The translations under genes and the position numbers were made by a program. The notes beneath the pieces were generated by a model. That model was not told the DNA's origin, did not search any database, and saw only the letters and a list, made by a program, of their open reading frames with translations. A stretch of DNA of 52,805 nt from a virus (lineage: Duplodnaviria > Caudoviricetes). The stretch lies in IMG/VR virus record IMGVR_UViG_3300034375_013195, positions 1 to 52,805 of that record; one strand, written 5' to 3'. The stretch's first letter is position 1, and the number at the start of each line of letters is the position of its first letter. Below are positions 1 to 42,778 of this stretch, piece by piece.

Positions 1-156
1 GTTGAATAGCAAAATATCATCATGAATAATTTCTTCATGATCATCCCATCCTTGGTCATCTGCTGGATGGATAGAGGGGTTTGCCTTTTGATTTATTATT
101 GATAAGCCAATAAAGTGTAATGTTCTATGGGTTTCTGTTTCGGTGAAATTTTTCAT
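1..156 (-). CDS. Hypothetical protein, cut by the window edge; second copy of 32540..32779
   Basis: Reads MKNFTETETHRTLHFIGLS, versus MKNFTETEVKRTLHFIGLS in the other copy. Confidence 0.85.
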   Translation of the reverse strand, partial: MKNFTETETHRTLHFIGLSIINQKANPSIHPADDQGWDDHEEIIHDDILLFN

Positions 157-190
157 GATTTTTAGTTTGTAGTGTTATTAAAATAGGAAG
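1..190 (+). repeat. Direct repeat, copy 1 (copy 2 at 32624-32813)
   Basis: 185/190 identical by eye. The only differences are ATGGGT (127-132) versus TTTTAC (32750-32755). Confidence 0.95.
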
Positions 191-1041: not shown

Positions 1042-1851
1042 TTACTTTCTTTTTGATTCTCCCAGGATTGCAATCTTGTTGAACATTTGCTTACATCTAT
1101 CAGCAAGCATTGTTGAATAATTCTCCCTTAAATCATCAAAATCTGCAAGGTTTGTTGTTATGTGGGTTTTCATCCCATTCTTCAGCAAAAGCCTGTATCT
1201 TCCCAGAATTACAAGCTGCATTACATTAATGACTGTTCCAAAGTTGTTTACAGGGCCTGTAAGCAATTCTTCCCCCAATCCATCAAAGCCCTTAATAATT
1301 GGCTTCTCAGATCTGCCCAACCCCTGCTTCTTCTGATAGAAACTTTTTGTTGTATGTTGGGCAATTATTTCTTCTTCTGTCTGATCCTTTAGCTTTGTAA
1401 ACTTTCTATAATTTTCAGTTACAGCATCACAAGAAAAAACCCTGAACCTTTGCTGCTCCAATTCTGGGAAATGCCTTGTTATTTCAGAGAGTATTTCAAG
1501 CAGAAGGCTTTTTCCTGTTCCTACATTTCCGCAAAGCATCAACCCTTTTCTAAGGGAGGCCCCTGGAATTGGGGAAGAACTTCTTTCAAACAGGGGGTTT
1601 TTAAATAAATACAATGCTAATTCTGGGAGAATCCAATTATTAACTGAATCCCATTCATAGAATGAATATTTAACTTCAAAAAGGTTCTGAAAGAACTGCT
1701 GCTGAAGCCCTGCAAGTTCCTCCCATTCTTTTTCAGATTTACCACCCGTTTGAATATCGTTCTTCAGATTTTGCTGTTGAATTGTCCGTTCCTTTTTTAG
1801 CTGCTGAATATAGCTTTGAAGGGCCTGCTGTTCTGTTTTTTGCTGTTTCAT
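1042..1851 (-). CDS. DnaC-like P-loop ATPase (helicase loader)
   Basis: Walker A GNVGTGKS, THITTN and DR..QMFN motifs; lies directly downstream of the initiator. Confidence 0.85.
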   Translation of the reverse strand: MKQQKTEQQALQSYIQQLKKERTIQQQNLKNDIQTGGKSEKEWEELAGLQQQFFQNLFEVKYSFYEWDSVNNWILPELALYLFKNPLFERSSSPIPGASLRKGLMLCGNVGTGKSLLLEILSEITRHFPELEQQRFRVFSCDAVTENYRKFTKLKDQTEEEIIAQHTTKSFYQKKQGLGRSEKPIIKGFDGLGEELLTGPVNNFGTVINVMQLVILGRYRLLLKNGMKTHITTNLADFDDLRENYSTMLADRCKQMFNKIAILGESKRK

Positions 1852-2563
1852 TTTGCTTTCTATTTACTGTTGTATTCAGGTAAGAATCAAAGCCTGCCTG
1901 AAGTGCTACTTCTGAAGGGCTGTATTCCTCCCTGATAGCTTTATTAATGAAGGCAATTTGCAACTCTTTAACATCAACCCCAACTGCCTGGGCTTTCTGT
2001 TGCCATTGATGAACCCTGATTGAATTATTCTCAATAATCTTCTGAAGATATTCTTCTTGAATTGCTGCAAGCGTATCTTCATTTTTTTCCTTTTCTATAC
2101 TTTCCTTTTCTATACTTTCCTTTGTTGCATTCTCGCTGCGAGAATTGGCATTCTCTCTGCGATAATTGCCCCTTAACCCTGTATTCTCGCTTCGATATTT
2201 CCGTTTTTGCCTGCTTCTGTCTTTCTCCCTCTTTTCAAACATTGGCTTCAATCTTTCCTTCAATGAAAGGCTAAAGATGAATACTTCATTCCTTTGAAGC
2301 AGCCCCAGAAGTATGCAATAAGTCCATATTTCAGAAAGAAGCTGGGGTTCAAGTCCAAAATCCCCAGCAACAAGGGTTGCTTCTTGTTCATTGAATTCAA
2401 TTCTGGTTCCTGGAGAAGCTGAAAGAAGTTCAAGGGTTTTGAAAAAAACAGCATATCCTGTTAAACCGTACTTGTTTTCAAGGGCCTTGATTTTCCTGTT
2501 GTTTCTTGCCTGGCAATCATGGCTGAACCAATCAGCCCCTTCTTTTTTGGGTCTACCTGCCAT
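1739..2563 (-). CDS. Replication initiator (DUF4373/Lin1244-like)
   Basis: N-terminus MAGRPKKEGADWFSHD..RNNRKIKAL..YGLTGY; internal iterons; paired with a loader gene. Confidence 0.85.
   Translation of the reverse strand: MAGRPKKEGADWFSHDCQARNNRKIKALENKYGLTGYAVFFKTLELLSASPGTRIEFNEQEATLVAGDFGLEPQLLSEIWTYCILLGLLQRNEVFIFSLSLKERLKPMFEKREKDRSRQKRKYRSENTGLRGNYRRENANSRSENATKESIEKESIEKEKNEDTLAAIQEEYLQKIIENNSIRVHQWQQKAQAVGVDVKELQIAFINKAIREEYSPSEVALQAGFDSYLNTTVNRKQNETAKNRTAGPSKLYSAAKKGTDNSTAKSEERYSNGW
2129..2200. repeat. Three 18-bp iterons, probable replication origin
   Basis: ATTCTCGCTGCGAGAATT (2129), ATTCTCTCTGCGATAATT (2150) and ATTCTCGCTTCGATATTT (2183) inside the initiator gene, beside a TTTCCTTTTCTATAC tandem repeat. 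Confidence 0.7.
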
Positions 2564-3784: not shown

Positions 3785-4190
3785 AAATTGAAAAATCTGC
3801 CTCCACTATTTCAGAAGATCCTGAAGAATTATTGAACTTTCTAAGGCTTATGCAGAAAGTTTTAAAACCCTGCTTGTATAAGTTGAATATAAGCTTCTTC
3901 AGGCCCCTTTCAGGGTCTATTCCTGAAATATGAAGATAAGGATCATGAAGGCCTTTCATTAGGCCCCCAGGCTTGAAGATGGAGGCTTCTGGGATGAATT
4001 GCAGCAGTTCTTCTTCTTCAAACTGCTTTCCAGGATAATTTAAATTATCAAGGGCCTGATTAATACCCAGAATCCTGCATTCAAATCCTTCTTGCACTTC
4101 CTGAAATTTATTCAGATCAAAAAGGGAATGAATTGGTTTTGTTGAAATTTGGTCTGGGCTCAACAAGATAAGTTCTTTTGATTTGTTCAT
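3765..4190 (-). CDS. Hypothetical protein
   Basis: ORF with an AAAGCAAAATG start context. Confidence 0.7.
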   Translation of the reverse strand: MNKSKELILLSPDQISTKPIHSLFDLNKFQEVQEGFECRILGINQALDNLNYPGKQFEEEELLQFIPEASIFKPGGLMKGLHDPYLHISGIDPERGLKKLIFNLYKQGFKTFCISLRKFNNSSGSSEIVEADFSIYDLYER

Positions 4191-4217
4191 TTTGCTTTCT
4201 GTTAAATGATGGAAAAA

Positions 4218-4943
4218 TTATTTATTCTTCAATTCCTTATTCTGCAAAAATTTAGGCATTGCAAGCCTTGCCTTTTGCTTCTTAACTGAATTCAAGAAGA
4301 AAGAAACCTGATGAAGCTGGGGATATTTATCCCAAATCTTCTGAAGCTCTGAATCCTTCTGGGTTGCTTCAATGCTTTCTTTGATCTGAAGGGCCTCTGC
4401 TTCTGTTATACCAAATTTCTTGAAGGGATCTTCTTGAAGGGGCTGTTTCCCTTTTTGAACCGTCTGTTGCTGGGGCTGCTTCTTTGAAGCCTGGGGAGGC
4501 TGCTGGGGGGCTTCCTGCTGTTCCTGTTGGGGAAATTCCGTACTTATACAGAAAACAGTTTCTATTGCCTGAGCAATTGCAATTGAAGTTGCTGCCTTAG
4601 GCCCAAAATCCCCTGCATGATTCTTTGCAATGCTGTGATCTGAACAAACTGTTCCTTCATCACATGAAAACTTAACCCTGATTGTTGTAAGGGTTCTCCA
4701 ATTCAATTTTTGAAGGCCTGTTTTCTTGTCTTGGGTTGTATAAGTAGTTTCAGAAAGGGAAAGGCTTTCTGTTGACATAACAACCCCAAAAGATGCTAAT
4801 TCTGGTTGAAGATGGTTTTTCAGATCATCAATTGAACGGTAACTTGAACCGTAAGAACCTGAATTGCTCCTTGTTTTGGCAATTGCCCCAATATTCTGGG
4901 AAATATCTGAAAGCCTGCTGTAAATACTAATTGAATTGTTCAT
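4218..4943 (-). CDS. ERF-family single-strand annealing protein
   Basis: IGAIAK...YRSIDDL...LQPEL...GVV N-terminal domain, D.GPKAATSIA motif, Q-rich linker. Confidence 0.7.
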   Translation of the reverse strand: MNNSISIYSRLSDISQNIGAIAKTRSNSGSYGSSYRSIDDLKNHLQPELASFGVVMSTESLSLSETTYTTQDKKTGLQKLNWRTLTTIRVKFSCDEGTVCSDHSIAKNHAGDFGPKAATSIAIAQAIETVFCISTEFPQQEQQEAPQQPPQASKKQPQQQTVQKGKQPLQEDPFKKFGITEAEALQIKESIEATQKDSELQKIWDKYPQLHQVSFFLNSVKKQKARLAMPKFLQNKELKNK

Positions 4944-4956
4944 TTTGCTTTTCTTT

Positions 4957-5373
4957 TTAGAATCCTACATTATTGATTTCTTCCTGCCCTTCAGCATTGA
5001 AGGGGTTGTTCTGAAAATATGTTTCCAAGTGCCGTTTCACTGTCTTTCTATGCAAGCCCGTAATTCTTGAAATTAGGGAATAATTAGGGGGGGAATTGGG
5101 ATCAATATTCTGTTCATAAGCTTCAATTACAGCTTTGTAATTATCCAAAGCTTCCTGATTTTTGAACTGAAGCTGCTGAGGCTTTGAAGGGGCTGCTGAA
5201 GCCTGGGGCTTCTGATCCAACATTTGAAGGTATCTTCTTACACAAAGCTTAATTGCCTGAGTTTGAGAAGTAACAGCTTCCCCTTCAACTCTCATTCTTG
5301 CAAGCAGAATTACAGGAAGATCGGCTTCCTGCCCCTGCCAAACAACATTAGTAAATCTTTGATCTTTTGACAT
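4957..5373 (-). CDS. Putative DNA-binding protein with C-terminal HTH
   Basis: NYSLISRITGLHRKTVKRHL helix-turn-helix pattern. Confidence 0.6.
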   Translation of the reverse strand: MSKDQRFTNVVWQGQEADLPVILLARMRVEGEAVTSQTQAIKLCVRRYLQMLDQKPQASAAPSKPQQLQFKNQEALDNYKAVIEAYEQNIDPNSPPNYSLISRITGLHRKTVKRHLETYFQNNPFNAEGQEEINNVGF

Positions 5374-5375
5374 AT

Positions 5376-5795
5376 TTATTTTGAATTAATTAAATGATAT
5401 TCAACAGTTTTGAAGTGATCTTTTTCAAGGAAGATTCCTGATTGTTCCAGGCAGAGCCCTGAAGCCTGTATCTTCCAATTCCTGAAGAATTCAGGCCAAA
5501 GGTATTCCTGAAAATTTTTCTTAGATGTTACCCCCCAAACCTTTGTAAATTCCAACTTATCAAGGCCCTGATTAGCCTTAAACATTCCTTCCTTATCATC
5601 AAAGGCCTTTGAGCAATAGTAAGCAGTAAGAAGATTCATAAATCTTTCTTTGTGATGCTTTTCAATGATTGAAATGTGCTTGCATTCCAGCTTGTAATTG
5701 GTGAACCCATTGAAGCCAATGTATAAAACAGGGGGGGTTCTCATAATTCCTATATAAATCTGCATAATACGTTCATTTTGTTTTTCTATGTGCAA
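5376..5795 (-). CDS. Hypothetical protein (start uncertain)
   Basis: First ORF of the early operon. Confidence 0.6.
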   Translation of the reverse strand: MHIEKQNERIMQIYIGIMRTPPVLYIGFNGFTNYKLECKHISIIEKHHKERFMNLLTAYYCSKAFDDKEGMFKANQGLDKLEFTKVWGVTSKKNFQEYLWPEFFRNWKIQASGLCLEQSGIFLEKDHFKTVEYHLINSK

Positions 5796-5832
5796 GATCT
5801 TAATTAATTATTAATTAATCAAGTGATTGCAC

Positions 5833-5917
5833 AAAAAAAAAGGTTGCCTGTTAAAGCAACCCAGAAAAGCAAAATGAACGAACAAGGCATCTATACAGCA
5901 GAAAGCCTTGATTTTTC
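5833..5917 (-). ncRNA. Candidate trans-acting antisense small RNA
   Basis: Upstream TATATTTG box, a 5' hairpin (CAAGGC..GCCTTG), an unpaired UUCGUUCAUUUUGCUUUUCU stretch, then a terminator GGGTTGC..GCAACC with a T-run. Confidence 0.55.
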
Positions 5918-5923
5918 GTTTGT

Positions 5924-5931
5924 CAAATATA
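5924..5931 (-). promoter_or_regulatory. Bacteroidota sigma-A -7 element
   Basis: TATATTTG matches the TAnnTTTG consensus; a TTTG lies upstream at 5950-5947 with shorter than usual spacing. Confidence 0.5.
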
Positions 5932-5938
5932 CGGTTTT

Positions 5939-7423
5939 TTATGTGTCAAATTGAATGCAATTTAAATCAAGGTTGTTGCCTGTTGTTATTCCAATAATGG
6001 AGAATTCCCCGTCAGATGCTTTTATCCTGTAACGATATGTTGAGCCGTTTGCAAAATCTGTTACCCCCCCATAAGTATCATATTGAGGCCGAGCCCCAGC
6101 AGGAAAATAAAAAGGAACATTTGAAGTTCCTGCTGTTCTTCTTACAAGCCCCTTACAATATAGCCTGCCCCCTGAATTAATTCTGTATTGAGCATTTTCA
6201 ACAGAATCAGAAAACAAAGATTCAAGGGTAATATCTGTATAAGATCCAGGATCAAAGCCTGAACCCCCAGCCTGATTTTCAAGCAGGGTTGTTTGCTTGA
6301 AGTTCAAGAATGAATCATCCATTATTGAAACGCTTCCTGAAATATCCCCCTGCTCAGACATCAATTCAACATAATCTGTATCAAGCAATTCCCCTTCCCA
6401 ATGAAAAAAAGCTGTTGATGTTTTTGAATTGCCATTGTTTCTTGAATATCCCCCAAAGGTTTGCCCTTCAGCTTTCAAGGCTGTTCCTGATCCGTTCTTT
6501 TGAAGCCAAAGGTTCAGGTTTATCCTTTGGCCTGAAGGGTTGTTGTAATTGATAGCAGCAAATATTTCATACCTTCCCCCCTTGCCTGTTGCAGGGCCTA
6601 TCCTTGAAGGGTTCGTTCCTGTTGAATGATTAACCCCCAAATCAATTCTAACTTGATTCTGCCATTCAACAGCAATTGCTGTTGAAGCGTTCGGGTTCTG
6701 GGTATTGCCTGAAGTTGTCAATCGGGCCCCGTTCGGGTTTGCTGCAAGGGGAATCTGAACTGCATTGTTCCAGCTTCCCGAAGCCTTTCCCGAATAAAAG
6801 ATTCGGTTCGTTTCGTCAACGTAGTGGTCCCCGTCAACCCCGTCAGAAACATCATCTGGGGGCCCTGATCCGCTTAATACAGTATTTCCGTCAGATCCGT
6901 TTGTTCCGTTTGACCCTGCTGGGCCCTGGTCCCCCTTGCTGGCTAATAAATCCCAATAGGTTGCATTCGGGGGCTGTTGGTTAATATGACTTGACTTTGC
7001 CACATAAGCAGATCCAGCGTCTTCAACAGCGTCAAATTGGTTGTAATTTGTTGCACCTGACCATACGCCCGTCCAAATAATTCCTGTGCCTGCTGGGCCC
7101 TGGGGCCCAGAATCTGCAAACAAATCCCAGAAGGCTGAACCTGGGGGATTCAAAGAAGGGGGCTGATTGTTTGAAGGGGCTGTTGCAATCCATGCTTTTA
7201 AATCATGATGAACCCCATCATTTTGCACATAATTTGTGCCTGAATCCCAAGCCCCCTTCCATGCAAGCCCTGAAGGCCCTGCATCCCCCTTAGGGCCTGC
7301 ATCTGTTATATTCATAATAACAGCCTCAGGATCTTCAATATTAATTGTTACTTCATCAGAATCTTCAATAATAATCTGAAGTTCTTCTTCATCAACAACA
7401 ATAATTGTTTCAAATGTAGACAT
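5939..7423 (-). CDS. Tail fibre with collagen-like repeats and two carbohydrate-binding-like modules
   Basis: GPxG triplets; two W.G.W...TNY...D.V...A(W/Y).A repeats. Confidence 0.8.
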   Translation of the reverse strand: MSTFETIIVVDEEELQIIIEDSDEVTINIEDPEAVIMNITDAGPKGDAGPSGLAWKGAWDSGTNYVQNDGVHHDLKAWIATAPSNNQPPSLNPPGSAFWDLFADSGPQGPAGTGIIWTGVWSGATNYNQFDAVEDAGSAYVAKSSHINQQPPNATYWDLLASKGDQGPAGSNGTNGSDGNTVLSGSGPPDDVSDGVDGDHYVDETNRIFYSGKASGSWNNAVQIPLAANPNGARLTTSGNTQNPNASTAIAVEWQNQVRIDLGVNHSTGTNPSRIGPATGKGGRYEIFAAINYNNPSGQRINLNLWLQKNGSGTALKAEGQTFGGYSRNNGNSKTSTAFFHWEGELLDTDYVELMSEQGDISGSVSIMDDSFLNFKQTTLLENQAGGSGFDPGSYTDITLESLFSDSVENAQYRINSGGRLYCKGLVRRTAGTSNVPFYFPAGARPQYDTYGGVTDFANGSTYRYRIKASDGEFSIIGITTGNNLDLNCIQFDT

Positions 7424-7796: not shown

Positions 7797-8267
7797 TTAC
7801 TTTGTATTCATTACCTGAGAAGAAGTAAAAAAGAACCCATTGCCTGAAGGGGGCATTTGCAACCATTCTAAAACAACATAGCCCCCCCCTTTCTTTCTGT
7901 ATCTGTTTTTAAACTTAGGATAATCAACAACAGGTTTTTTCTTGAATTCCTCCCATGCCTGCCTTGTAGCCTCCACATCTTCAGGATGAACAAAGGAAAG
8001 AAAATGAGAAGCCTTCAGTTCTTCCTGCTCCCAGCCTAAAACCTCTGTAAAATAGGGATTAACCAGAAGAAACCTTCCTTCAGGGGAAAGAATTACATTC
8101 AGGCAGAAATCTTGCCTGATGAACATTTGAAAAAGGGATTCTGCAAAAACAATGCTTTTTAATCTTTCAATTGATCCTGTTGAATCCATTTCTGCAATGA
8201 TGTTTGCAATCTCCTTATTAAGTCTTTGCAAGGGGCCTAATTTAAAAACGCTAAAAAACCTTTTCAT
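7797..8267 (-). CDS. Stand-alone PAS-domain protein
   Basis: GRFLLVNPYFTEVLGW..EEL....FLSFVHPED..NRYRKKGGGYVVLEW, a PAS_3-type signature. Confidence 0.85.
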   Translation of the reverse strand: MKRFFSVFKLGPLQRLNKEIANIIAEMDSTGSIERLKSIVFAESLFQMFIRQDFCLNVILSPEGRFLLVNPYFTEVLGWEQEELKASHFLSFVHPEDVEATRQAWEEFKKKPVVDYPKFKNRYRKKGGGYVVLEWLQMPPSGNGFFFTSSQVMNTK

Positions 8268-13842: not shown

Positions 13843-13950
13843 GCCTCAGCAATTTATAAACTGCTGATGCTTAATATTTTCAGCTTAATCTGTAATTAAG
13901 CTTGATTAATTACTTTTTAATTATGTAATTGCTGATTAAAGAAAAGTAAA

Positions 13951-14296
13951 ATGAAACCCCTATTCCCCCCCCAAAAAAACAGCATCCATTCCCCAGGCTG
14001 TTGAAAAGTACATTGCAGGGTATAATCTTGAATTATACCCTGCTTACCCTAAGGGGAAAATAATGCTTGTTGAAACAACCCCTTCAGGGTTTCCTTTGCC
14101 CCCAGGGGCCTGCTTCATTATCTCAGGCCTGAAAGATCATGTTGCAATAAGATCTGCTTACAATCCCAGCTTCAGCCCTGTTCAATTCTACATTAACAGA
14201 ATGAAGGCAGTTAATATTGAAGAATCAACCTGGGCTTTCAGCAGAAGGATCATTGAAGAAATATACAAGCCAATAATTAGAAGCAATAATCAATGA
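13951..14296 (+). CDS. Hypothetical protein whose likely start (13951) is out of frame across a C8A7 run
   Basis: The frame of 14063..14296 is open from 13955. The ATG at 13951 has an A-rich leader but is one base out of frame. Confidence 0.5.
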
Positions 14297-14541
14297 TAAT
14301 TCATAGATTTTTAACCTGGGGCCTTTGTAGGTATGCAGATGCTGTTTCAGTTCTGGGATCTTATATCAGAACCCAGGGGAGAATTATTCAGGCAATCATT
14401 TCAATGAATCCTGCTAAGGCTGTTGAAGCCTTCTCTGATTTTGCTGCTGTTAATAAGGCCCTGAAAGGAATGGGAATTGATACAGAAACCCCCATTCCTG
14501 AGGAAGAAGGCCCCCAGGCATCTGATAAATTATTCTTTTGA
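14293..14541 (+). CDS. Hypothetical protein
   Basis: ATGA overlap with the upstream ORF. Confidence 0.65.
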   Translation: MIIHRFLTWGLCRYADAVSVLGSYIRTQGRIIQAIISMNPAKAVEAFSDFAAVNKALKGMGIDTETPIPEEEGPQASDKLFF

Positions 14542-14602
14542 ACAGCAGGCAAATAATAATGCTATTTAACATAATGTAAATTATGAGAAAAAGTAAATTC
14601 CA

Positions 14603-14869
14603 ATGATAACAGTAAAACAAATTCAAGCTATCATCAAAGAAAATAATCTTCCTGAAGATGCAATCTTTGAATTTAAGATCAGGGAAGGAATCTCTTACTT
14701 GTATGTAAAAACCCCAAATGGATTAATGAATTACCCTGGGTTCAAAAGCTTTAAGGAAATACTTTCAGAGAAGCTTGCACAGGAAGAAGATCTTAATCCT
14801 TACGAAGCAGCAGCATCTGCTTTTGCTGCTCAATTTGGCGTATTTGGAACCTACAACCCTACCCCATGA
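14603..14869 (+). CDS. Hypothetical protein
   Basis: ORF in the plus-strand cluster. Confidence 0.65.
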   Translation: MITVKQIQAIIKENNLPEDAIFEFKIREGISYLYVKTPNGLMNYPGFKSFKEILSEKLAQEEDLNPYEAAASAFAAQFGVFGTYNPTP

Positions 14870-15082: not shown

Positions 15083-15364
15083 CTATTTTCTTAATCTTCT
15101 TTTAAACCTTTCAAATCTTCCTTTCATCAGCTTCTGATTCCCCCTAAAGTAATCAACCCCAACAGGCCCCAAGTTAAAACCCCAGCAAAGCCCAAAGGAA
15201 TTCATTTGTTCATATTCAGGATGCTTCTTATCAAAGAATACAACTTCAATAATTCTTCCCATGAAATTAATAAGAACTTCAATCTTCCTTGAAGGGTCAA
15301 TCTTTGAAGGCCTTGAATTAGTTATTATTAGGCCCCCTAAAAAAGAATTGTAATAATTTTTCAT
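15083..15364 (-). CDS. Hypothetical protein
   Basis: Start placed at MKNYY, preceded by AAAAGCAAA. Confidence 0.6.
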   Translation of the reverse strand: MKNYYNSFLGGLIITNSRPSKIDPSRKIEVLINFMGRIIEVVFFDKKHPEYEQMNSFGLCWGFNLGPVGVDYFRGNQKLMKGRFERFKRRLRK

Positions 15365-15403
15365 TTTGCTTTTTTTTGTATTGGGCAGCAAGTTAATTAC
15401 TTT

Positions 15404-24989: not shown

Positions 24990-25552
24990 CGCGCCAAAGG
25001 AATGCCTTCAGTTGCAGGAAGCTCCTTAATTGCTGGGATCAGATCCTTACTTGCTTCTTCATCAAAAATATCTTCATCAAAATCAGGCTGAACAAATATT
25101 GCAATAACCTCTGAAGCATAAGGAAGTAATTCTGCAAGCTTTCCTTCCTTCAAAAGATCCTGATCTGCCCAGGCCTTGAACTTCTGATTCATCGCTTCAA
25201 CTTGTGCAAGGCCATACTGCCCAGGCTTCTGCTTAATCTTAATCTTCTTCCCCTTCAATTCAATTTCCTTAGGGGGAGGAAGCTTCAGGAAGTTGGGGTT
25301 TTTTTCTGAATCATCCCAGAATCTTTGAACGATCTGAAGAACAGGGGCTGCTTCATCTAATGAAACCCCTTGCCAGAAGCCCAATTCTATGCCTGTTACC
25401 CCTGAAAGCAGTTGCCTGGGGTTCAGGGGGCCTTGAAGCATGAAGCCCTTCAGAGCTTCAAAAGAGCCCGTTGAAAGTTCCTCCCAGGTTTCAGGAACAG
25501 TAAACTTAATTGCAGCCTTTGTTTTCTTAGATCTAATTTTCAAATCTTTCAT
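24884..25552 (-). CDS. Tail assembly chaperone (gpG-like)
   Basis: VPETWEELS start; slippery T9 run near the end. Confidence 0.75.
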   Translation of the reverse strand: MKDLKIRSKKTKAAIKFTVPETWEELSTGSFEALKGFMLQGPLNPRQLLSGVTGIELGFWQGVSLDEAAPVLQIVQRFWDDSEKNPNFLKLPPPKEIELKGKKIKIKQKPGQYGLAQVEAMNQKFKAWADQDLLKEGKLAELLPYASEVIAIFVQPDFDEDIFDEEASKDLIPAIKELPATEGIPLARFFLSMFLRLLQIGLKHTTQTKRRIPLLRRLGLIS

Positions 25553-25557
25553 TTTGC

Positions 25558-26952
25558 TTATGTTGCTTTTGCTTTTATTCTGCCTGATGGCTTCAATTCA
25601 AAATACATTCGCATGTGAAAGGCATCAGATATATCAGGTGATCTTCCCAAAATCAGCTTCAACTGTTCCTTCCCAATCACTTGCTTCCTTTTGTCTGTTC
25701 CTGGGTATTTCTCCCTGATATTCCCAATTTCCTCCTTAGCATCTGCAAGAAGGCCTTCATCATTACAAGGCCAATATACCAAATTTTGTCTTATTTTTTC
25801 TGCCAGCAGATAGCAACATTGGGTTTTTAAATTGGCATAAAATTTATTTGCAGGAATGTTTTTCCCCTGGGGGGTTTCGACTGTTCCCAAAGCAGCCCCC
25901 CCATTAACAAAGGCCTGAACTTTCAGGGAATCAACAGGCCCTGCCCCTACCCCATCTGAGTCAACAACAACCCTTCTTCTAGGTATATTGAACTTATTCA
26001 TTAAGAACTTCAGCCTTCTTGAAAATTCATCTAAGGGGGCCTTCTTAATCTTTTCAAGATGGATTACCTGAAGGCCCTGCCAAACAACTATTATTGAAGC
26101 ATCCCTGCCAAATCTTGCAACATCTGCTGAAATGTATCTTGTTGCCTTTGAATATTTAACTTCAAGAAATTCATTTGTAAACATATCAGAAAGGGCTTCC
26201 TGATCTACAATTGCAGAAGGATCTGAAGCATAATCCCAGGAACCGTTTACCCTTCTTTCATATTCTGTTGGATTGACTGTTCTTAGCTGTTCAAGGTTTT
26301 CAAGATATGCCTTAGGCACAAAAGGATTATCAGTAATTTTAGCAGGAATATACAACCAATCTTCAGGAAGCCTTCCCTTCAAATATCTTTCATAAATCAA
26401 GGATCTTACCCAATTATTTGCTGGGTTCAAGGTGCAAATTATCAAAGGTTTGGGCTGCTCTGCATTCTCCCCAGGTATAAAATAAGATCCAACCCTTTCA
26501 ATACATTTTGAAAAACCTTGAAGGGAAAGTTCTTCAATCTGATCTAAGAAGAAGTAATTCACTTCTAAACCATCAAATCTTTGGAGCTCCTTATCCTTAT
26601 CAATATTTTCCCCAAAGAAGAAAGCTTCAGAATCAAGCTCTGCCCCATATTGTTTACAATCTGCCTTCCAAACATACCTTGAAGCATTAATCAGCTTCAT
26701 GAAGTTAGAAGGAAAAACCTTTTTACAGGTAGGAAGGGTATTATCAACAAGCCTTTTGAAGTTTGCCCTTACAATTGCAAGCCTGCTGCCTGGGTATCTT
26801 CTTAGAAGAATTGTCTTAACTGCAAGCCCGTTGAAAGACTTGCCCCCCCTGATTGCACCCCCGTAAAATATTATTTTATACTTACCTGAAAGGGCTGCTT
26901 CAAGCAGTTCAATTGCCTTAGGGAAATTTGACCAATCAACAACATTTGCCAT
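25558..26952 (-). CDS. terL: Terminase large subunit
   Basis: Walker A GGAIRGGKS, TLNP motif, nuclease motifs ADVARFGRD and RSPDISDA. Confidence 0.95.
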   Translation of the reverse strand: MANVVDWSNFPKAIELLEAALSGKYKIIFYGGAIRGGKSFNGLAVKTILLRRYPGSRLAIVRANFKRLVDNTLPTCKKVFPSNFMKLINASRYVWKADCKQYGAELDSEAFFFGENIDKDKELQRFDGLEVNYFFLDQIEELSLQGFSKCIERVGSYFIPGENAEQPKPLIICTLNPANNWVRSLIYERYLKGRLPEDWLYIPAKITDNPFVPKAYLENLEQLRTVNPTEYERRVNGSWDYASDPSAIVDQEALSDMFTNEFLEVKYSKATRYISADVARFGRDASIIVVWQGLQVIHLEKIKKAPLDEFSRRLKFLMNKFNIPRRRVVVDSDGVGAGPVDSLKVQAFVNGGAALGTVETPQGKNIPANKFYANLKTQCCYLLAEKIRQNLVYWPCNDEGLLADAKEEIGNIREKYPGTDKRKQVIGKEQLKLILGRSPDISDAFHMRMYFELKPSGRIKAKAT

Positions 26953-27513: not shown

Positions 27514-27777
27514 CTATTCAGAAGGCCCCTTTTCTACTACCTTTATTTTTTTTGAAGCCCAAATTGAAGCAAAGGTTGCCCCAATAGAAAGCAAGATTGT
27601 AATCACATAAGCAGGGCTTCCCCAGGTAAACAAAGAACTTGCAATTGCAATTCCTGCCCCAATAAAGAAAAACCCCATCAGGCCCCAGGCAAACATTAGA
27701 GCAGCAGAGCCATATTCAGCAATCAAATCCCAAAGGGATTTTTCATCATTAAGATTCTTGAATTGTTGTTCGTTCAT
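27514..27777 (-). CDS. Two-TM membrane protein
   Basis: Two hydrophobic helices and a charged tail. Confidence 0.7.
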   Translation of the reverse strand: MNEQQFKNLNDEKSLWDLIAEYGSAALMFAWGLMGFFFIGAGIAIASSLFTWGSPAYVITILLSIGATFASIWASKKIKVVEKGPSE

Positions 27778-28579: not shown

Positions 28580-28759
28580 CTAATTTAGCAGAATTTTCCT
28601 TTGTCCGCAAGGGCAAAGGCCTCCCTGAACCTGATTCCTTACATGAATTGTTTTTTTGCATCCATACCTTGAACATAAAACAGGAACAGGGGCCTGGGGC
28701 TTCAGAATATTAACTGAAGGAAGATTGATTGTTCGTTCTTTGCTTTTCTGGGTTGCCAT
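28580..28759 (-). CDS. 59-aa Zn-ribbon-like protein (not in the ORF track)
   Basis: MATQKSKERT...CSRYGC...CPCG; starts 2 nt after the stop of the T9SS gene. Confidence 0.6.
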   Translation of the reverse strand: MATQKSKERTINLPSVNILKPQAPVPVLCSRYGCKKTIHVRNQVQGGLCPCGQRKILLN

Positions 28760-28761
28760 GA

Positions 28762-29940
28762 TTAGAGCTTAATGAAATGTTTAGTTGTATAAATGAAATC
28801 AAGCCCCTTTAGCCTGAGGACAAAAACCCCAGAAGGCAAAGATGAAAGATCAACCTTATTTGCCCCCCTATTGCTACCAACAGCAACAACAGCCCCTTTC
28901 ATGTTTATAACTTCAAAGGCCTCCACTTCAAAAGGGGCTTCAAAGTATAATTGGCTTCCTGCTGGATTGGGATATAAAAGAACCTGATCTGCCTGGGGGC
29001 CTGCAAGCCTGGGGGCAGATGGCTGAACAGTAATAAAGAAATCCTGAAGCTTTCCTGCACAATTCCCAGCATAAGGAATTACACGAATTTTAGCAGTAAG
29101 ATCTGATCCTGAAGAATTGCTTGCAATGAATGATAAATTCCCAAGCCCTATTTCAGGCCCAATTCCTATTTCAGGATTATTGAAGGAAGCATGATCTGCC
29201 CAAATTATGAAGCTTGTTTCAGGGTCGGGGCTGCTGAAGGCAATGCTTACTGCATCCCCTGCTGTTACTGTATCATTAGGGATTGAATCCAATGATACAA
29301 AAGGGGCTGTTGAAAATACTTCTTCCAATGTATCAGAACAAGATTGAAAGCCTTCATTGATTCCTATTATTTGATAATTGTTTGAACCTGGGGAAGGGGC
29401 ATCAATGAAATAGGAAACAGGATTGCCTTTTGTGGCCTCCACATTCCCCAGGCAATTGCCATTTCTTGAAAATAGATAATTATCAGCAACCTTTCTTGAA
29501 TCTGAAAGGCCTGAAGCAAGATCAAAGGAAGCCCCTGAACAAAAGGTTCCTGAAGGGAATGTTGCAGAAATGTTTGGGCTCTTTCTTACTCTTACTTTTA
29601 CCTTCCTTGCAGGGCCTGCTGTTCCATCAAATTGAGCAACCCAATAAAAGGAAGTAGAAGGGGAAGCCATTGAAGGCAAAACAGGCTGCTCCCCTGTTCC
29701 GTTGAAAAGGGCTCCTTTGCTGCCTGAGTTATCTTCATACCAAACAAGGGAATTCCCTGGGATAAATGCAGAGTTCATTTCAACAACTTCATTCATATCT
29801 GCTGGGGCTGTTTCCCCTTGACAATAAAATATACTGATCTGATTGCAGGAATTACAATTCTGGGGCACAAGTTTTGGATTTGCAGCAAAGGCAATCAAGC
29901 CCCAGGCAAAAACCGACATAAAGAGAAAAAGGTTTTTCAT
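28762..29940 (-). CDS. Secreted Ig/PKD-like protein with a T9SS type A sorting domain
   Basis: Signal peptide; Ig-like WY..FYWVAQ..R.V.V; PKD-like domain; C-terminus LYPNPA...INMKG...DLSSLPSGVFVLRL...FIKL. Confidence 0.88.
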   Translation of the reverse strand: MKNLFLFMSVFAWGLIAFAANPKLVPQNCNSCNQISIFYCQGETAPADMNEVVEMNSAFIPGNSLVWYEDNSGSKGALFNGTGEQPVLPSMASPSTSFYWVAQFDGTAGPARKVKVRVRKSPNISATFPSGTFCSGASFDLASGLSDSRKVADNYLFSRNGNCLGNVEATKGNPVSYFIDAPSPGSNNYQIIGINEGFQSCSDTLEEVFSTAPFVSLDSIPNDTVTAGDAVSIAFSSPDPETSFIIWADHASFNNPEIGIGPEIGLGNLSFIASNSSGSDLTAKIRVIPYAGNCAGKLQDFFITVQPSAPRLAGPQADQVLLYPNPAGSQLYFEAPFEVEAFEVINMKGAVVAVGSNRGANKVDLSSLPSGVFVLRLKGLDFIYTTKHFIKL

Positions 29941-31482: not shown

Positions 31483-31663
31483 TTGTTTTTCCTTTAGATA
31501 AAAATATTACCTGGGAAGGTAAATTAATTAGCTTTTCATTAAAAAGCAATCAAATGTAATTAACTAATAAAGAAAAAGCCTGGGGCAGGCCTTTCAGCAT
31601 ACCCCAGGCAAGAAAATCAAATAGGATATAACAAGTTTCTTCCAACCTGTTATGCTTAAAAAT

Positions 31664-32539: not shown

Positions 32540-32779
32540 TTAAGCCTTTGTTCTTTTTACCACCCCTCCCCAAAATTTTTCAAACTCATAAAATGGAGGA
32601 AGGTTTTTTGTGGTCGCTATTTTGTTGAATAGCAAAATATCATCATGAATAATTTCTTCATGATCATCCCATCCTTGGTCATCTGCTGGATGGATAGAGG
32701 GGTTTGCCTTTTGATTTATTATTGATAAGCCAATAAAGTGTAATGTTCTTTTTACTTCTGTTTCGGTGAAATTTTTCAT
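32540..32779 (-). CDS. Hypothetical protein
   Basis: Duplicated at 1..156; homologue at 844..1014. Confidence 0.8.
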   Translation of the reverse strand: MKNFTETEVKRTLHFIGLSIINQKANPSIHPADDQGWDDHEEIIHDDILLFNKIATTKNLPPFYEFEKFWGGVVKRTKA

Positions 32780-32813
32780 GATTTTTAGTTTGTAGTGTTA
32801 TTAAAATAGGAAG
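32624..32813 (+). repeat. Direct repeat, copy 2
   Basis: Matches bases 1-190. Confidence 0.95.
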
Positions 32814-36221: not shown

Positions 36222-36833
36222 TCATGATCTATAAAAAATATTGATGTAAAGTATATCATCCACCGCAGGAGTTACACCGCTTGGTGGATAGTATTGAATT
36301 GTACCGTCAGTGTTTATCTTAATCGTGGCAATATGGTAAGTGCCAGCGCTATCGTCATAGTAGCTGATAGGCTTAATAACCGCCCCCGAAGGTCTTCGAG
36401 CTGGTGGTATAGGGTCGATATCAACGATCGTATTGCCGGTATACCCTGTCGAATTAGTTAGCGCTTGACTAATTAACATTAACTCCCCATCAAAAAAGTA
36501 GACAATAGCCGCAGCGCTCCAATCTGCCGAGCTGTCAAACGTCCCGGCGATGAAATTCACATTAGATCCGCTTATCGCATCATCGACGTACTTCTTGGTA
36601 GCCGCATCGTAATTACTGGTCGGTGTTGCAAGTCCTGTAATCTTATTACTTCCTGCTGCTAGGCTAGTAGTCATTGGGTTAGTAACCCCGCCCCCTGTCC
36701 ACTCCGTGATAGTCCCATCATTGTCATACCATATTTTAGGGGGGGTTACATTCATCTGCCATGCGTATGTACACCCTGAAGGGATGCTTACTGGCTTCCT
36801 GTCTACCTTATATATTTTCTCGTATTCTGCCAT
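36222..36833 (-). CDS. Short tail fibre-like protein, paralogue 1
   Basis: KITGLATPTSNYDAATKKYVD fibre motif; shares its N-terminus with 38559..39182. Confidence 0.75.
   Translation of the reverse strand: MAEYEKIYKVDRKPVSIPSGCTYAWQMNVTPPKIWYDNDGTITEWTGGGVTNPMTTSLAAGSNKITGLATPTSNYDAATKKYVDDAISGSNVNFIAGTFDSSADWSAAAIVYFFDGELMLISQALTNSTGYTGNTIVDIDPIPPARRPSGAVIKPISYYDDSAGTYHIATIKINTDGTIQYYPPSGVTPAVDDILYINIFYRS
36686..36833 (+). repeat. 148-bp direct repeat, copy 1 (copy 2 at 39032-39179)
   Basis: 144/148 identical; encodes MAEYEKIYKV...EWTGGG. Confidence 0.95.
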
Positions 36834-38558: not shown

Positions 38559-39182
38559 TTATTCGAAAATTAAGTTAACTATTAAGCCCTTTGGGGTTGT
38601 GGTAAAAGTTGAAGCACCTATCTGTAGCTCTAGTCTATCATTTGTGACTACATCATCTGCCGCTGTATTGATTGAGCCTGTAGATGAGTCTATTCCTCCT
38701 GCTGCTATAGTCAAGTTTGCAGAGAGCATATTTGCGGTGTCTGTTCTATTGTATAGCATCGCGTTGGTGCTGTCTCCTGCTCCTGCTACATCATGATGGT
38801 ACGTGATTTCTATCAAATCCATGCCTGTAAAAAGGGAAGGAATAGGCCCTATTTTGTAATCAGTAGAGACAGTGATGTCTGTTGCTGCATCAACAAGTCT
38901 CACCATCAACCCTTTTTGTTTGGTGATAGCAGGCAGTTCTGCAACGGGAACAAGTGCCGATCCATCTAGGGAAGCATATCCAGATGCTGCGCTTTTTTCA
39001 GATAGAAGCTGATATGTGCCTGGTGCAACTCCCCCGCCCCCTGTCCACTCCGTGATAGTCCCATCATTGTCATACCATATCTTAGGAGGGGTTACATTCA
39101 TCTGCCATGCGTATGTACACCCTGAAGGGATGCTCGCTGGCTTCCTGTCTACCTTATATATTTTCTCGTATTCTGCCATCAA
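38559..39182 (-). CDS. Short tail fibre-like protein, paralogue 2
   Basis: EK.AASGYASLD...VP..ELP fibre motif; shared N-terminus. Confidence 0.75.
   Translation of the reverse strand: MMAEYEKIYKVDRKPASIPSGCTYAWQMNVTPPKIWYDNDGTITEWTGGGGVAPGTYQLLSEKSAASGYASLDGSALVPVAELPAITKQKGLMVRLVDAATDITVSTDYKIGPIPSLFTGMDLIEITYHHDVAGAGDSTNAMLYNRTDTANMLSANLTIAAGGIDSSTGSINTAADDVVTNDRLELQIGASTFTTTPKGLIVNLIFE
39032..39179 (+). repeat. 148-bp direct repeat, copy 2
   Basis: Matches 36686-36833. Confidence 0.95.
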
Positions 39183-41551: not shown

Positions 41552-42778
41552 ATGGACACAGCGGTGATCGACAGACGTATAAACTCCTTTTATAATATCC
41601 AGAACAAGGGCGAGGACACAGCAGTAATCGACCTTATCGGTGTTATAAATGACTTCTGGACAGGCGATAACTCGAAAGAGGTTTTTCTGGCCCAGCTCAA
41701 AGGCATTAAAGCCTCCAACATTACAGTAAACATTTCTAGCCCTGGGGGCGACTCTGCCGATGCGATGGCGATATATGATGCTCTGAAGGGTCACCCTGCC
41801 AGAGTTACAGCGCGCCTCTCTGGCTTGGTGGCTTCAGCCGCTACTACCGTAGCCTGTGGCGCTGATGTAGTAGAGGCAAGTCCTACCTGTATTTACATGA
41901 TCCATAATCACTGGATTTTTACAGCTGGGAATAAGAAGGAAATGGAAAAAACCATGAAGGCGTTAGACACCTTCGATAAGGTCGCGGCTGGTATCTACAA
42001 GAAAAGAACGGGACAGAGGCTAGACACCATCAAGCGAATGATGGATGAGGAAACCTACATGACAGCACAGGAAGCAAAAGACTTTGGCTTTGTAGATAAG
42101 ATCATAGAGGGTATCACTTTCGAGAACCAAGTAACGCTTGAAGATCTCGAAGTAAGGAACTACATGAGTAGTACCCTAAACTGTGCTAAGCTACCGCCAG
42201 TCGCAGCAGGGGAAGCCCCCGAAATACCAATCAATAGTCAAACTGATAATAATATCATGGATAATCTTAACACAGAGCAGCAGGGCGCTTTTGTCCGCTT
42301 TGTCAATAGCCTTATCGGCAAGAAAAACGACGAAGCAGAAATCGCGGAAACGCCCCAAGCAGAAACCAACGAACTTGAAGCCCTTCGCAATGAAGTGGCA
42401 GACCTGAAACAGCAACTTTCAGAAGCTAAGAACACTGAGACCTTCGATGTCCAGGCTTTTGCTAATTCTATCGCTAATGCCATCAACGGCAAAGTTGAAG
42501 AGGTAGCCAAGGAGGTGGTAAACGAAGCGACCGAGGCTGTAAAAAACGAAGTAACCGAGCTTAAAGCAGAGGTGGAAAAAGTAGCCGACAAGGTTAACAA
42601 CAGCACCGAAGTAGAAGCCCTCACCGAAAAGGTGGAAGAAGTAGCCAAAGCAGTCAACAAAACAAAGACGCTCGAAGCGCAGCCTGAGACTCCGACCAAT
42701 AATGGTGAAGGGTTGGAGAAGGTAGTCGCGCCCGAAAATACCTGGCTTCACACTGTCAAAAATTTCTCCAAGAACTAA
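41552..42778 (+). CDS. ClpP-like prohead protease with scaffold extension
   Basis: SSPGG, ASAAT, MIHN and ETYMTAQEA..FGFVD motifs; acidic coiled-coil tail. Confidence 0.9.
   Translation: MDTAVIDRRINSFYNIQNKGEDTAVIDLIGVINDFWTGDNSKEVFLAQLKGIKASNITVNISSPGGDSADAMAIYDALKGHPARVTARLSGLVASAATTVACGADVVEASPTCIYMIHNHWIFTAGNKKEMEKTMKALDTFDKVAAGIYKKRTGQRLDTIKRMMDEETYMTAQEAKDFGFVDKIIEGITFENQVTLEDLEVRNYMSSTLNCAKLPPVAAGEAPEIPINSQTDNNIMDNLNTEQQGAFVRFVNSLIGKKNDEAEIAETPQAETNELEALRNEVADLKQQLSEAKNTETFDVQAFANSIANAINGKVEEVAKEVVNEATEAVKNEVTELKAEVEKVADKVNNSTEVEALTEKVEEVAKAVNKTKTLEAQPETPTNNGEGLEKVVAPENTWLHTVKNFSKN

What the first reader, a model, noticed from the sequence alone, without database searches (positions are those of the whole stretch)
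5833..5931. Candidate multi-target antisense small RNA against the phage's own start regions
Seen: a self-contained minus-strand unit with a TATATTTG -7 box, a 5' hairpin, an unpaired UUCGUUCAUUUUGCUUUUCU stretch and a terminator. The unpaired stretch is perfectly complementary across the AUG of several genes: ERF (17 nt, 4938-4954), the 4190 gene (14 nt), the DnaC-like loader (13 nt), the 15364 gene (14 nt) and the tail chaperone (12 nt). It also pairs 18+10 nt, with a 2-nt bulge, to the first codons of the Zn-ribbon ORF 23 kb away (28729-28756). Inference: one RNA could silence replication and recombination genes by covering a shared AAAGCAAAAUG initiation motif. That could stand in for a CI-like repressor, which I cannot identify in this genome.
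Basis: partly seen in the sequence, partly recalled or inferred. Interest (0 to 1): 0.85.

Follow-up and report, generated by a model that had tools for sequence, protein, structure and literature searches.

The report
Anti-start-site RNA at phage late/early junction
Between the tail-fibre gene and the early genes of a Bacteroidota phage sits a terminator-bearing RNA element whose free stretch mirrors the phage's shared start-codon motif; it most likely folds back on the next gene's start, and a wider role as a silencing small RNA is possible but untested.

Summary
On the minus strand, 5931..5833 carries a TATATTTG box, a 5' hairpin, an unpaired U-rich stretch and a 9-bp terminator with a U9 tail. 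All the claimed complementarities exist: 17, 14, 14, 13 and 12 nt, plus 18+10 nt.

- **Shared motif explains the matches.** The plus strand at 5863-5879 is a copy of a 12-17-nt start-site motif (AGAAAGCAAAATGAA-like) that five long genes share. Family members match each other as well as they match this site.
- **A cis partner was missed.** The copy is one arm of a ~130-nt interrupted palindrome. The other arm (5770-5787) is the start region of the adjacent first early gene. A read-through RNA folds to -54.6 kcal/mol, z -6.2, with the "seed" paired 17/18 in cis.
- **No expression or comparative evidence.** No RNA run, usable relative or Rfam family was found.

My best reading (0.38) is a late-operon terminator or leader with a cis fold-back that masks the first early start. 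Trans silencing by a short RNA is a live rival (0.22). A stand-in for a CI repressor is unsupported. Interest is moderate.

The parts
5924..5931 (-). TATATTTG, a match to the Bacteroidota sigma-ABfr -7 consensus TAnnTTTG. It sits 7 nt after the tail-fibre stop codon. It is a possible promoter for a transcript starting near 5917.
   Evidence: It is one of only 2 intergenic minus-strand matches in phage A; the other is at 31551-31558. The motif is not enriched overall (40 found against 55.8 expected). The consensus is taken from passages of PMC7366714.
5883..5910 (-). 5' hairpin: a 6-bp outer stem plus a 4-bp inner stem.
   Evidence: -10.2 kcal/mol, z -2.69.
5863..5882 (-). Unpaired U-rich stretch UUCGUUCAUUUUGCUUUUCU. 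It is the reverse complement of the shared start-site motif, and is the 'seed' or anti-start-site sequence.
   Evidence: P unpaired about 1.0 for 5875..5863 in the 85-nt RNA.
5833..5862 (-). Intrinsic terminator: a 9-bp stem with a 4-nt loop at 5862..5841, then a U run to 5833. It is unidirectional, because on the plus strand an A run precedes the stem.
5789..5833 (-). Second hairpin, an AT-rich palindrome. It includes the 9+1+9 perfect palindrome at 5800-5818 and the GTGCAA/TTGCAC flanks. It may be an operator or an RNA stem.
   Evidence: (repeat I1).
5770..5787 (-). Copy of the start-site motif AGAAAAACAAAATGAACG at the head of the early gene block. It is the cis partner of the seed (17 of 18 pairs, one C.A mismatch). 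Its ATG at 5777 opens only an 8-codon ORF (5777..5751), which overlaps the ATG at 5765 of the first early ORF.
   Evidence: (repeat I2).
5376..5795 (-). First early ORF: 139 aa from TTG at 5795, or 129 aa from ATG at 5765. It is an orphan protein.
5939..7423 (-). Tail-fibre gene, the last gene of the structural block. Its transcript would end at the terminator.
   Evidence: phrog_5073, E 3.7e-27.
5874..5954 (+). Plus-strand 26-codon mini-ORF behind the inverted motif copy. This is the rival reading.
4938..4954 (-). ERF start region, with a 17-nt exact complement to the seed.
4185..4198 (-). Start region of the 141-aa gene (ATG at 4190), 14 nt.
1847..1859 (-). Start region of the DnaC-like loader gene (ATG at 1851), 13 nt.
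15360..15373 (-). Start region of the 93-aa gene (ATG at 15364), 14 nt.
25548..25559 (-). Start region of the 222-aa gene after the large terminase (ATG at 25552), 12 nt.
28729..28756 (-). An 18+10-nt complement with a 2-nt gap, at codons 2-10 of the 59-codon Zn-ribbon-like ORF 28759..28580. In sense it reads like the start motif with the AT of its ATG missing.

Best explanation
The locus is the regulatory junction between the long rightward-to-leftward structural (late) block, which ends with the tail-fibre gene, and the recombination and replication (early) block of a roughly 32.6-kb Bacteroidota phage.

Shown by sequence and folding:
- an intrinsic terminator sits 77 nt after the tail-fibre stop;
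- just upstream of it lies an inverted copy of the phage's shared start-site motif;
- that copy is one arm of an interrupted palindrome whose other arm is the start region of the first early gene.

Inferred mechanism. Any minus-strand RNA that contains 5882..5863 and reads through the terminator folds back, so the anti-start stretch pairs with 5787..5770. That RNA could be late-operon read-through or a transcript from the TATATTTG box. The fold also masks parts of the neighbouring start candidates (TTG 5795, ATG 5777, ATG 5765). This blocks ribosome entry at the first early gene and creates a long duplex that could also be a cleavage site. The terminator and the fold-back together insulate, or attenuate, the early block.

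The terminated short RNA of about 85 nt, if it is made, has the same stretch free. It could additionally act in trans on the other genes that use the same start motif. That is a possible extension and is not needed to explain the sequence.
For: - Terminator and unpaired stretch.
- Read-through RNA 5917..5740: MFE -54.6 kcal/mol against -30.6 +/- 3.9 for shuffles, z -6.21, 0 of 200 shuffles as good. In the MFE structure the seed pairs 17/18 with 5770-5787, enclosing the terminator hairpin and a second hairpin. The inverted repeats I1 and I2 were found independently.
- In that RNA the seed's mean P(unpaired) drops to 0.16, from 0.80 in the short RNA.
- The minus-strand RNA of 5750-5900 is 7.3 kcal/mol more stable than the plus-strand RNA, through G.U pairs.
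- The family nature of the motif explains the trans matches without further assumption.
- Genome layout: all structural and early genes are on one strand and the locus lies at their boundary. The 190-nt repeat shows that phage A is a unit of about 32.6 kb.
- A Bacteroidota host is supported by three results:
  - starts are A-rich and lack a Shine-Dalgarno sequence;
  - one protein carries a T9SS sorting domain;
  - of 100 phage records matching the portal protein, 98 are named Bacteroides, Parabacteroides or Tenacibaculum phages.
- In that phylum initiation depends on unstructured A-rich start regions (PMC6847099, abstract and section 15). A fold-back should therefore be effective.
Against: - A U9 terminator lies between the two arms, so most seed-bearing transcripts should end before the partner is made. 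The cis pairing can act only on the read-through fraction.
- The palindrome could be a DNA-level feature (an operator, an origin or an inverted duplication) with no RNA role. The central mismatch is C.A in the minus RNA but G.U in the plus RNA.
- The cis model does not explain the 28-nt match at 28729-28756.
- The ATG of the cis motif copy opens only an 8-codon ORF, so what is being controlled is unclear.
- There are no RNA data and no informative relatives. The one relative seen (run X20) is about 97.8% identical over 5726-5956, which is no more conserved than the rest of the genome.
Confidence: 0.38

Rival explanations
1. An independent minus-strand small RNA of about 85 nt, running from the TATATTTG box to the terminator, acts in trans. 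It covers the AUG of several phage mRNAs that carry the shared start motif (ERF, the 4190 gene, the DnaC-like loader, the 15364 and 25552 genes and the first early gene) and also the 28759 ORF, and so represses their translation.
For: - The shape matches canonical Bacteroides intergenic sRNAs: a -7 box, a short transcript and a Rho-independent terminator (passages of PMC7366714).
- The promoter box lies before the terminator, which yields a short transcript.
- The seed is free only in the short RNA: mean P(unpaired) is 0.80, against 0.26 in the late-mRNA 3' end and 0.16 in the read-through RNA.
- Exact matches far exceed shuffles.
- This plus-strand site is the only place in the window outside a gene start that shares 12 nt or more with 3 or more gene starts.
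- The 18+10-nt match to 28729-28756 gives -35.1 kcal/mol, which 0 of 300 shuffles reach. It is not explained by the motif alone.
- Bacteroides sRNAs (GibS, FopS) do repress by pairing at start regions (passages of PMC11697453).
Against: - The targets are not independent. Any inverted copy of the family motif would give the same list.
- With a 27-nt seed and wider windows, the number of start regions bound at -15 kcal/mol or lower (18 of 74) is like that for shuffled seeds (mean 15.3), because U-rich RNA pairs with any A-rich start.
- The -7 box is not above chance, and the upstream TTTG is 15 nt away. The spacing of 19-21 nt that I take as the expectation is recalled, not from a call.
- The target set mixes early and structural genes, with no obvious logic.
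- The 59-codon target ORF is only 40 codons in a near-identical variant.
Confidence: 0.22
2. There is no riboregulation. The terminator simply ends the late operon. The inverted motif copy and the palindrome are DNA-level features, either an inverted duplication of the early-gene start cassette or an operator or origin-like palindrome. The matches to other starts are by-products of the shared motif.
For: - The arms align as DNA: TAATTAAT..TTGCACA..AGAAAA(G/A)CAAAATGAACG. A 28-nt insert (A run plus terminator hairpin) sits in one arm (and direct reading).
- A perfect 9+1+9 palindrome sits at the centre, as in an operator.
- Further partial copies of the same cassette exist, which suggests that gene-start cassettes have been copied around:
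  - 28729-28756, lacking the AT of the ATG;
  - ATGAACGAACAA at 27777 and at 10657;
  - a plus-strand copy at 13940-13956.
- The -7 box is not statistically supported.
Against: - The extent of the complementarity is unusual for an operator: about 58 predicted pairs over 149 nt, z -6.2.
- The extra stability on the minus strand fits an RNA role.
- The placement of the anti-start stretch exactly in the single-stranded gap between two hairpins of a terminator-ended unit would be a coincidence.
Confidence: 0.28
3. The plus strand is the functional one. The motif at 5863-5879 is an ordinary start site for a 26-codon plus-strand gene (5874..5954), transcribed divergently from the early block.
For: - The site is a perfect member of the start-motif family, with A at -3 and -6.
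- Another plus-strand copy at 13940-13956 heads a 17-codon ORF upstream of real plus-strand genes.
- The palindrome would give symmetric divergent starts.
Against: - No plus-strand TANNTTTG box lies between 1811 and 8819.
- In the plus-strand fold the AUG and the following codons sit in a 13-bp stem.
- Positions -12 and -13 are C rather than the favoured A (PMC6847099 section 15).
- The ORF runs antisense into the tail-fibre gene and no plus-strand gene follows.
- In the X20 relative, an extra T in the 5935-5940 run shifts its frame after about codon 21.
Confidence: 0.07

Closest known systems
c4 antisense RNA of phages P1 and P7 (immI operon)
   Same: In both cases a small antisense RNA is encoded upstream of its target, on the same strand and in the same transcription unit. 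It pairs with the ribosome-entry region of the next gene (icd/ant in P1). The description of P1 comes from passages of PMC8198154 and partly from recall. The layout here is the same: a seed, then 75 nt, then the start region of the next gene.
   Different: - c4 uses two short complementary blocks and is cut out of the precursor (recalled). Here there is one 17/18 block, and a terminator between the RNA and its target.
- The downstream gene here is an orphan, not a known antirepressor.
- No sequence or Rfam similarity was found.
- The host phylum differs.
Fold-back inhibition of read-through transcripts (IS10 transposase; recalled, no paper read here)
   Same: An upstream sequence present only in transcripts that come from outside pairs with the start region and blocks translation. 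This insulates the gene from external transcription.
   Different: - Here the element lies in a phage, at a late/early operon boundary.
- It is combined with an intrinsic terminator.
- The host has no Shine-Dalgarno pairing.
- The pairing is only predicted.
GibS and FopS sRNAs of Bacteroides
   Same: These are Bacteroidota sRNAs with sigma-ABfr promoters and terminators. They repress several mRNAs by pairing next to the start codon, and a copy occurs in a Bacteroides phage (passages of PMC11697453; PMC7366714).
   Different: - No homology was tested directly against FopS or GibS sequences, and nothing reached the Rfam thresholds.
- The targets here would be the phage's own genes, through a phage-specific start motif, not susC-like host genes.
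Short terminated leader RNAs of lambdoid late promoters (lambda 6S RNA from pR'-tR')
   Same: A promoter is followed within about 100-200 nt by a strong terminator, ahead of a gene block. The result is an abundant short RNA, with read-through needed for the genes behind it. The 6S RNA is mentioned in PMC12197685, section 4; the rest is recalled.
   Different: - No Q-like antiterminator was identified.
- The block behind the terminator is early (recombination and replication), not late.
- The short RNA here carries an anti-start-site sequence.
P22 sar and lambda OOP antisense RNAs
   Same: These are phage antisense RNAs that block translation or destabilise a regulatory mRNA (PMC12197685, section 4).
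   Different: They are cis-antisense, transcribed from the opposite strand of their single target. Here the RNA is on the same strand as all its candidate targets.

Membership tests
Canonical Bacteroidota intergenic sRNA (own TSS plus Rho-independent terminator; criteria in PMC7366714) | A sigma-ABfr -7 box (TAnnTTTG) a few nt upstream of the 5' end | tested here: inconclusive
   TATATTTG is present at 5931..5924. The motif is not enriched (40 found against 55.8 expected), and the upstream TTTG is 15 nt away.
Canonical Bacteroidota intergenic sRNA (own TSS plus Rho-independent terminator; criteria in PMC7366714) | Intrinsic terminator at the 3' end | tested here: met
   A 9-bp stem, a 4-nt loop and a U9 run.
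Canonical Bacteroidota intergenic sRNA (own TSS plus Rho-independent terminator; criteria in PMC7366714) | A detected transcript with a mapped 5' end | not testable with these tools
   No RNA holder was listed among the 24 runs, and only DNA contigs could be laid.
Trans-acting multi-target base-pairing sRNA | An accessible seed complementary to several mRNAs, above a composition-matched null | tested here: inconclusive
   The seed is accessible. Exact matches and 21-nt duplex energies beat shuffles. The 27-nt seed does not, and all start-region matches reduce to one shared motif.
Trans-acting multi-target base-pairing sRNA | Seed and targets conserved or co-varying in relatives | not testable with these tools
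   No usable relatives were found. The X20 relative was seen only as a count of differences.
Cis fold-back / anti-start-site leader (P1 c4-like or IS10-like layout) | A complementary sequence upstream on the same strand as the start region it masks | tested here: met
   5880..5863 pairs with 5770..5787, 17 of 18, within a fold of z -6.2.
Cis fold-back / anti-start-site leader (P1 c4-like or IS10-like layout) | Transcripts that contain both arms exist, and translation depends on the pairing | not testable with these tools
   This needs RNA data and reporter assays.
Any Rfam family | A score at or above the family's gathering threshold | tested here: not met
   There were 0 matches in the whole window. 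In 5650-6050 at E up to 10 there were 19 weak matches, the best 22.6 bits against a cut-off of 55.
CI-like repressor substitute (lysogeny maintenance) | A temperate life style (integrase or prophage state), with lytic genes as the only targets | tested here: not met
   None of the 50 ORFs scanned against Pfam hit an integrase or repressor family. The candidate targets include genes in the structural block (15364, 25552).

The most novel reading that the evidence does not exclude
A Bacteroidota phage encodes an 'anti-start-site' riboregulator. It would be a short terminated RNA whose free 13-20 nt are the exact antisense of a phage-specific start-codon cassette (AGAAAAGCAAAAUGAAC) used by a subset of the phage's genes. 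One RNA would then switch off the translation of recombination, replication and some structural genes together, in trans. It would also switch off the first early gene in cis. This would be a sequence-addressed translational master switch in a host that lacks Shine-Dalgarno pairing.
Probability: 0.13. Interest if true: 0.8.

Novelty: new member of a known kind. Interest (0 to 1): 0.42.

Why it matters
Regulatory RNAs of Bacteroidota phages are almost unstudied. In this phylum start-site choice depends on unstructured A-rich leaders rather than Shine-Dalgarno pairing, so masking a start region by RNA pairing should be especially effective.

If the fold-back or the short RNA is real, it would show how a one-strand, roughly 32-kb phage separates late from early expression without a recognisable repressor. 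It would also explain why several of the phage's genes keep an identical 12-17-nt start cassette.

If it is only a terminator next to a palindrome, the shared start cassette still remains as an unexplained, testable feature.

Tried and rejected
Searches for relatives, which would have allowed a covariation test, all failed.
- blastn of 4900-6500 against phages: no match.
- Protein-guided locus searches:
  - the 139-aa protein and ERF in viral contigs: none;
  - ERF in metagenome contigs: 147 pattern hits, none related;
  - the portal protein in viral contigs: one relative at 25% identity, L007, not examined further;
  - the large terminase in genome contigs: none.
- Exact-pattern scans:
  - the 18-mer in viral contigs: 4 loci, all unrelated contexts;
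  - the two-arm pattern with a 70-100-nt gap: 1 locus, inside a 609-aa ORF;
  - the 20-mer in metagenome contigs: 13 loci, all unrelated.
- The 139-aa protein is an orphan (1 cluster), and its 4 cluster members are 99-100% identical.

Expression: no RNA holder was listed among the 24 runs. The four runs laid (X9, X10, X17, X20) are DNA contigs. The table of differences was cut (497 rows not shown), so the positions of the 5 substitutions in 5726-5956 of the X20 relative are unknown.

Supplementary files of the papers were not opened. They may hold FopS or GibS sequences and promoter tables that bear on the comparison.

Ideas considered and dropped:
- An invertase-type crossover between the inverted copies at 5856-5885 and 28729-28756. 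They lie 23 kb apart and no recombinase was found.
- The motif as a promoter. The family copies sit 5-40 nt after the preceding stop codon inside operons, which is where a translation signal sits.
- Pairing of AGAAAG with the 16S rRNA 3' tail. This was not tested.
Full report
**What the window is.** The window is a whole IMG/VR virus record of 52,805 bases.
- Bases 1-190 repeat at 32624-32813 with 97.4% identity.
- The remainder has a higher G+C content and a second head protease.
- In phage A almost all genes lie on the minus strand.
- Read along that strand, a packaging and structural block comes first: large terminase, tape measure, head protease, capsid-like protein, portal and tail fibre.
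- A recombination and replication block follows directly: an orphan 139-aa ORF, a 138-aa ORF, ERF, Lin1244-like and DnaC-like proteins and a methylase.
- The finding lies in the 143-nt gap between the two blocks.
- The host is very probably a member of the Bacteroidota:
  - gene starts lack Shine-Dalgarno sequences and are A-rich;
  - one protein carries a T9SS sorting domain (PF18962, E 4.1e-7);
  - of the 100 phage records that match the portal protein, 82 are Bacteroides phages, 15 Parabacteroides, 1 Tenacibaculum and 2 unnamed.

**Check of the observation.**
- The minus strand has TATATTTG at 5931..5924.
- The 85-nt RNA 5917..5833 folds into a 5' hairpin (5910..5883), an unpaired stretch (5882..5863) and a 9-bp terminator stem (5862..5841) with a U run. 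Its MFE is -24.1 kcal/mol, z -3.49.
- The core AUUUUGCUUUUCU is unpaired with probability about 1.0.
- The exact complementarities are 17 nt (ERF), 14 nt (4190 gene), 14 nt (15364 gene), 13 nt (DnaC-like gene at 1851), 12 nt (25552 gene) and 18+10 nt at 28729-28756.
- They exceed chance by exact-match counts. Five of 74 starts share 12 nt or more, and 0 of 2000 shuffles reach that. The 17-mer with up to 3 mismatches occurs 11 times against 0.74 expected.
- They also exceed chance by duplex energy for the 21-nt stretch.

Two results temper this.
- With a 27-nt seed and wider windows, shuffled U-rich seeds bind as many A-rich starts as the real one: 18 starts against a mean of 15.3 at -15 kcal/mol or lower. 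Only the 28759 site stands out.
- The TANNTTTG box is not enriched: 40 found against 55.8 expected.

The label 'tail chaperone' for the 12-nt target could not be verified.

**What the complementarity really is.** AAGCAAAATG occurs five times on the minus strand, each time at a gene start, and once on the plus strand, at this locus. The starts of the 1851, 4190, 4943, 15364 and 25552 genes share a 12-17-nt cassette, consensus about AGAAAGCAAAATGAA.
- The similarity does not extend beyond about -12 to +6.
- The genes are internal to operons, 5-40 nt after the previous stop codon. The cassette is therefore a translation signal.
- It has A at -3 and -6, and in ERF also at -12 and -13. These are the positive determinants reported for Flavobacterium johnsoniae (PMC6847099, abstract and section 15).
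- Family members share 12-16 nt with one another, and the locus copy shares 12-17 nt with them.

The list of targets is therefore one observation and not five: the plus strand at 5863-5879 is an inverted copy of the family cassette. A scan of both strands of the window shows that this is the only place outside a gene start that shares 12 nt or more with three or more starts.

A further family copy, AGAAAAACAAAATGAACG, lies on the minus strand at 5787..5770. That is 75 nt downstream of the seed, at the head of the early block.
- It is 17/18 complementary to the seed.
- The two copies are the outer arms (repeat I2) of an interrupted palindrome. Its inner arms (repeat I1, 5781-5810 and 5812-5841) contain a perfect 9+1+9 palindrome at 5800-5818 and GTGCAA/TTGCAC flanks.
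- Aligned as DNA, the two arms differ by a 28-nt insert in the right arm, which is the A run plus the terminator hairpin.
- A read-through RNA 5917..5740 folds to -54.6 kcal/mol. Shuffles give -30.6 +/- 3.9, so z is -6.21 and 0 of 200 shuffles are as good. In this fold the seed is paired to 5770-5787, and the TTG at 5795 and part of the ATG at 5765 are also in stems.
- In that RNA the seed's mean probability of being unpaired falls to 0.16.
- The minus-strand RNA is 7.3 kcal/mol more stable than the plus-strand RNA over 5750-5900, thanks to G.U pairs. The central mismatch, however, favours the plus strand.
- The ATG of the cis copy (5777) opens only an 8-codon ORF, which overlaps the ATG at 5765 of the first early ORF.

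**The 28-nt match.** The site at 28729-28756 lies at codons 2-10 of a 59-codon ORF that directly follows a T9SS-domain gene. In sense it reads GCAACCCAGAAAAGCAAA-GAACGAACAA. That is the locus sequence, including 7 nt of the terminator stem, with the AT of the ATG missing.
- It cannot be chance (self-BLAST E 3.7e-4 within the window; -35.1 kcal/mol).
- It is either a real pairing target or a further, decayed copy of the same start cassette. ATGAACGAACAA also recurs at the 27777 start and at 10657.
- In a near-identical variant the ORF is only 40 codons long, so its coding status is doubtful.

**Weighing the models.** Four models remain.
- **Cis junction element (0.38).** The terminator ends the late block. 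Any transcript that passes it carries the anti-start stretch, which folds back on the first early start. This explains the terminator, the palindrome, the fold statistics and, as by-products, the trans matches. It does not explain the 28-nt match, and it acts only on read-through RNA.
- **Trans-acting sRNA (0.22).** In its favour:
  - the promoter-before-terminator order;
  - the canonical sRNA shape in this phylum (PMC7366714 passages);
  - the seed being free only in the short RNA;
  - the 28-nt match;
  - precedents of start-region-targeting sRNAs in Bacteroides (PMC11697453 passages).

  The targets are not independent, the -7 box is statistically weak and expression is unknown.
- **DNA-level palindrome or duplication next to an ordinary terminator (0.28).** This cannot be excluded.
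- **Plus-strand mini-ORF (0.07).** Evidence against it:
  - no plus-strand -7 box nearby;
  - the AUG buried in a 13-bp stem;
  - C at -12 and -13;
  - a frame change in the X20 relative.

The idea of a stand-in for CI has no support. None of the 50 ORFs scanned against Pfam hit an integrase or repressor family, and the candidate targets include genes of the structural block.

**Comparison with known systems.** The layout resembles several known systems.
- P1/P7 c4: an antisense RNA upstream of, and co-transcribed with, the start region it masks (PMC8198154 passages; details recalled).
- Fold-back inhibition of read-through transcripts in IS10 (recalled).
- Short terminated leader RNAs such as lambda 6S (PMC12197685, section 4).

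It is not a member of any Rfam family, and no homology to those RNAs was found or claimed. If it is real, it is a new member of a known kind, a start-site-masking RNA, in a phage group and host phylum where none has been described. My searches for such a description listed none. That covers only the held library, and supplements were closed.

**Limits.**
- No relatives with usable variation were reachable.
- The single relative (run X20) shows 5 substitutions and 2 single-base run-length changes in 5726-5956. That is about as conserved as the rest of the genome, and its tail-fibre C-terminus is swapped just upstream at 5956-6183.
- No RNA run was listed.

Noticed in passing
window 1-190 and 32624-32813: A direct repeat of 190 nt at 97.4% identity. 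Phage A is therefore a unit of about 32.6 kb. The remaining 20 kb has higher G+C (0.43-0.48) and a second head protease (Clp, 41552..42778). It is either a second phage or a chimeric join.
   Followed up: partly
window 13940-13956 (+), ORF 13951-14004: A second plus-strand copy of the start cassette (AGAAAAGTAAAATGAAA) heads a 17-codon ORF. It lies in the divergent gap between the head-protease gene and the plus-strand cluster at 14063-14869.
   Followed up: partly
window 5800-5818: A perfect 9+1+9 AT-rich palindrome (TTAATTAAT-T-ATTAATTAA), flanked by GTGCAA/TTGCAC, sits just downstream of the terminator. It is operator-like. A similar TTAATTAA-rich palindrome lies at 5375-5404.
   Followed up: partly
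window 5751-5777 (-): The 8-codon ORF MNVLCRFI starts at the strong start cassette and overlaps the ATG at 5765 of the first early ORF in another frame. It is a possible leader peptide or decoy start.
   Followed up: no
window 5956-6183: In the roughly 95%-identical relative in run X20, the C-terminal part of the tail-fibre gene is replaced by 238 unrelated letters. The swap ends about 20 nt upstream of the locus, so this looks like a host-range cassette exchange at the junction.
   Followed up: no
window 7797-8267 (-): A phage-encoded 156-aa protein with a PAS fold (PF08447, E 1.1e-11) lies between the portal and tail-fibre genes.
   Followed up: no
window 28762-29940 (-): A 392-aa protein with a T9SS C-terminal sorting domain (PF18962). 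It is a moron-like secreted protein and a marker of the host phylum.
   Followed up: partly
window 36686-36833 and 39032-39179: A 148-nt direct repeat at 97.3% identity gives two genes of the second phage the same N-terminus.
   Followed up: no
window 28580-28759 (-): The 59-codon Zn-ribbon-like ORF is only 40 codons long in a near-identical variant (P0010). Its coding status is therefore doubtful.
   Followed up: partly
whole window: TANNTTTG is under-represented: 40 found against 55.8 expected, and 98 of 100 shuffles have at least 40. This could reflect avoidance of spurious host promoters.
   Followed up: no
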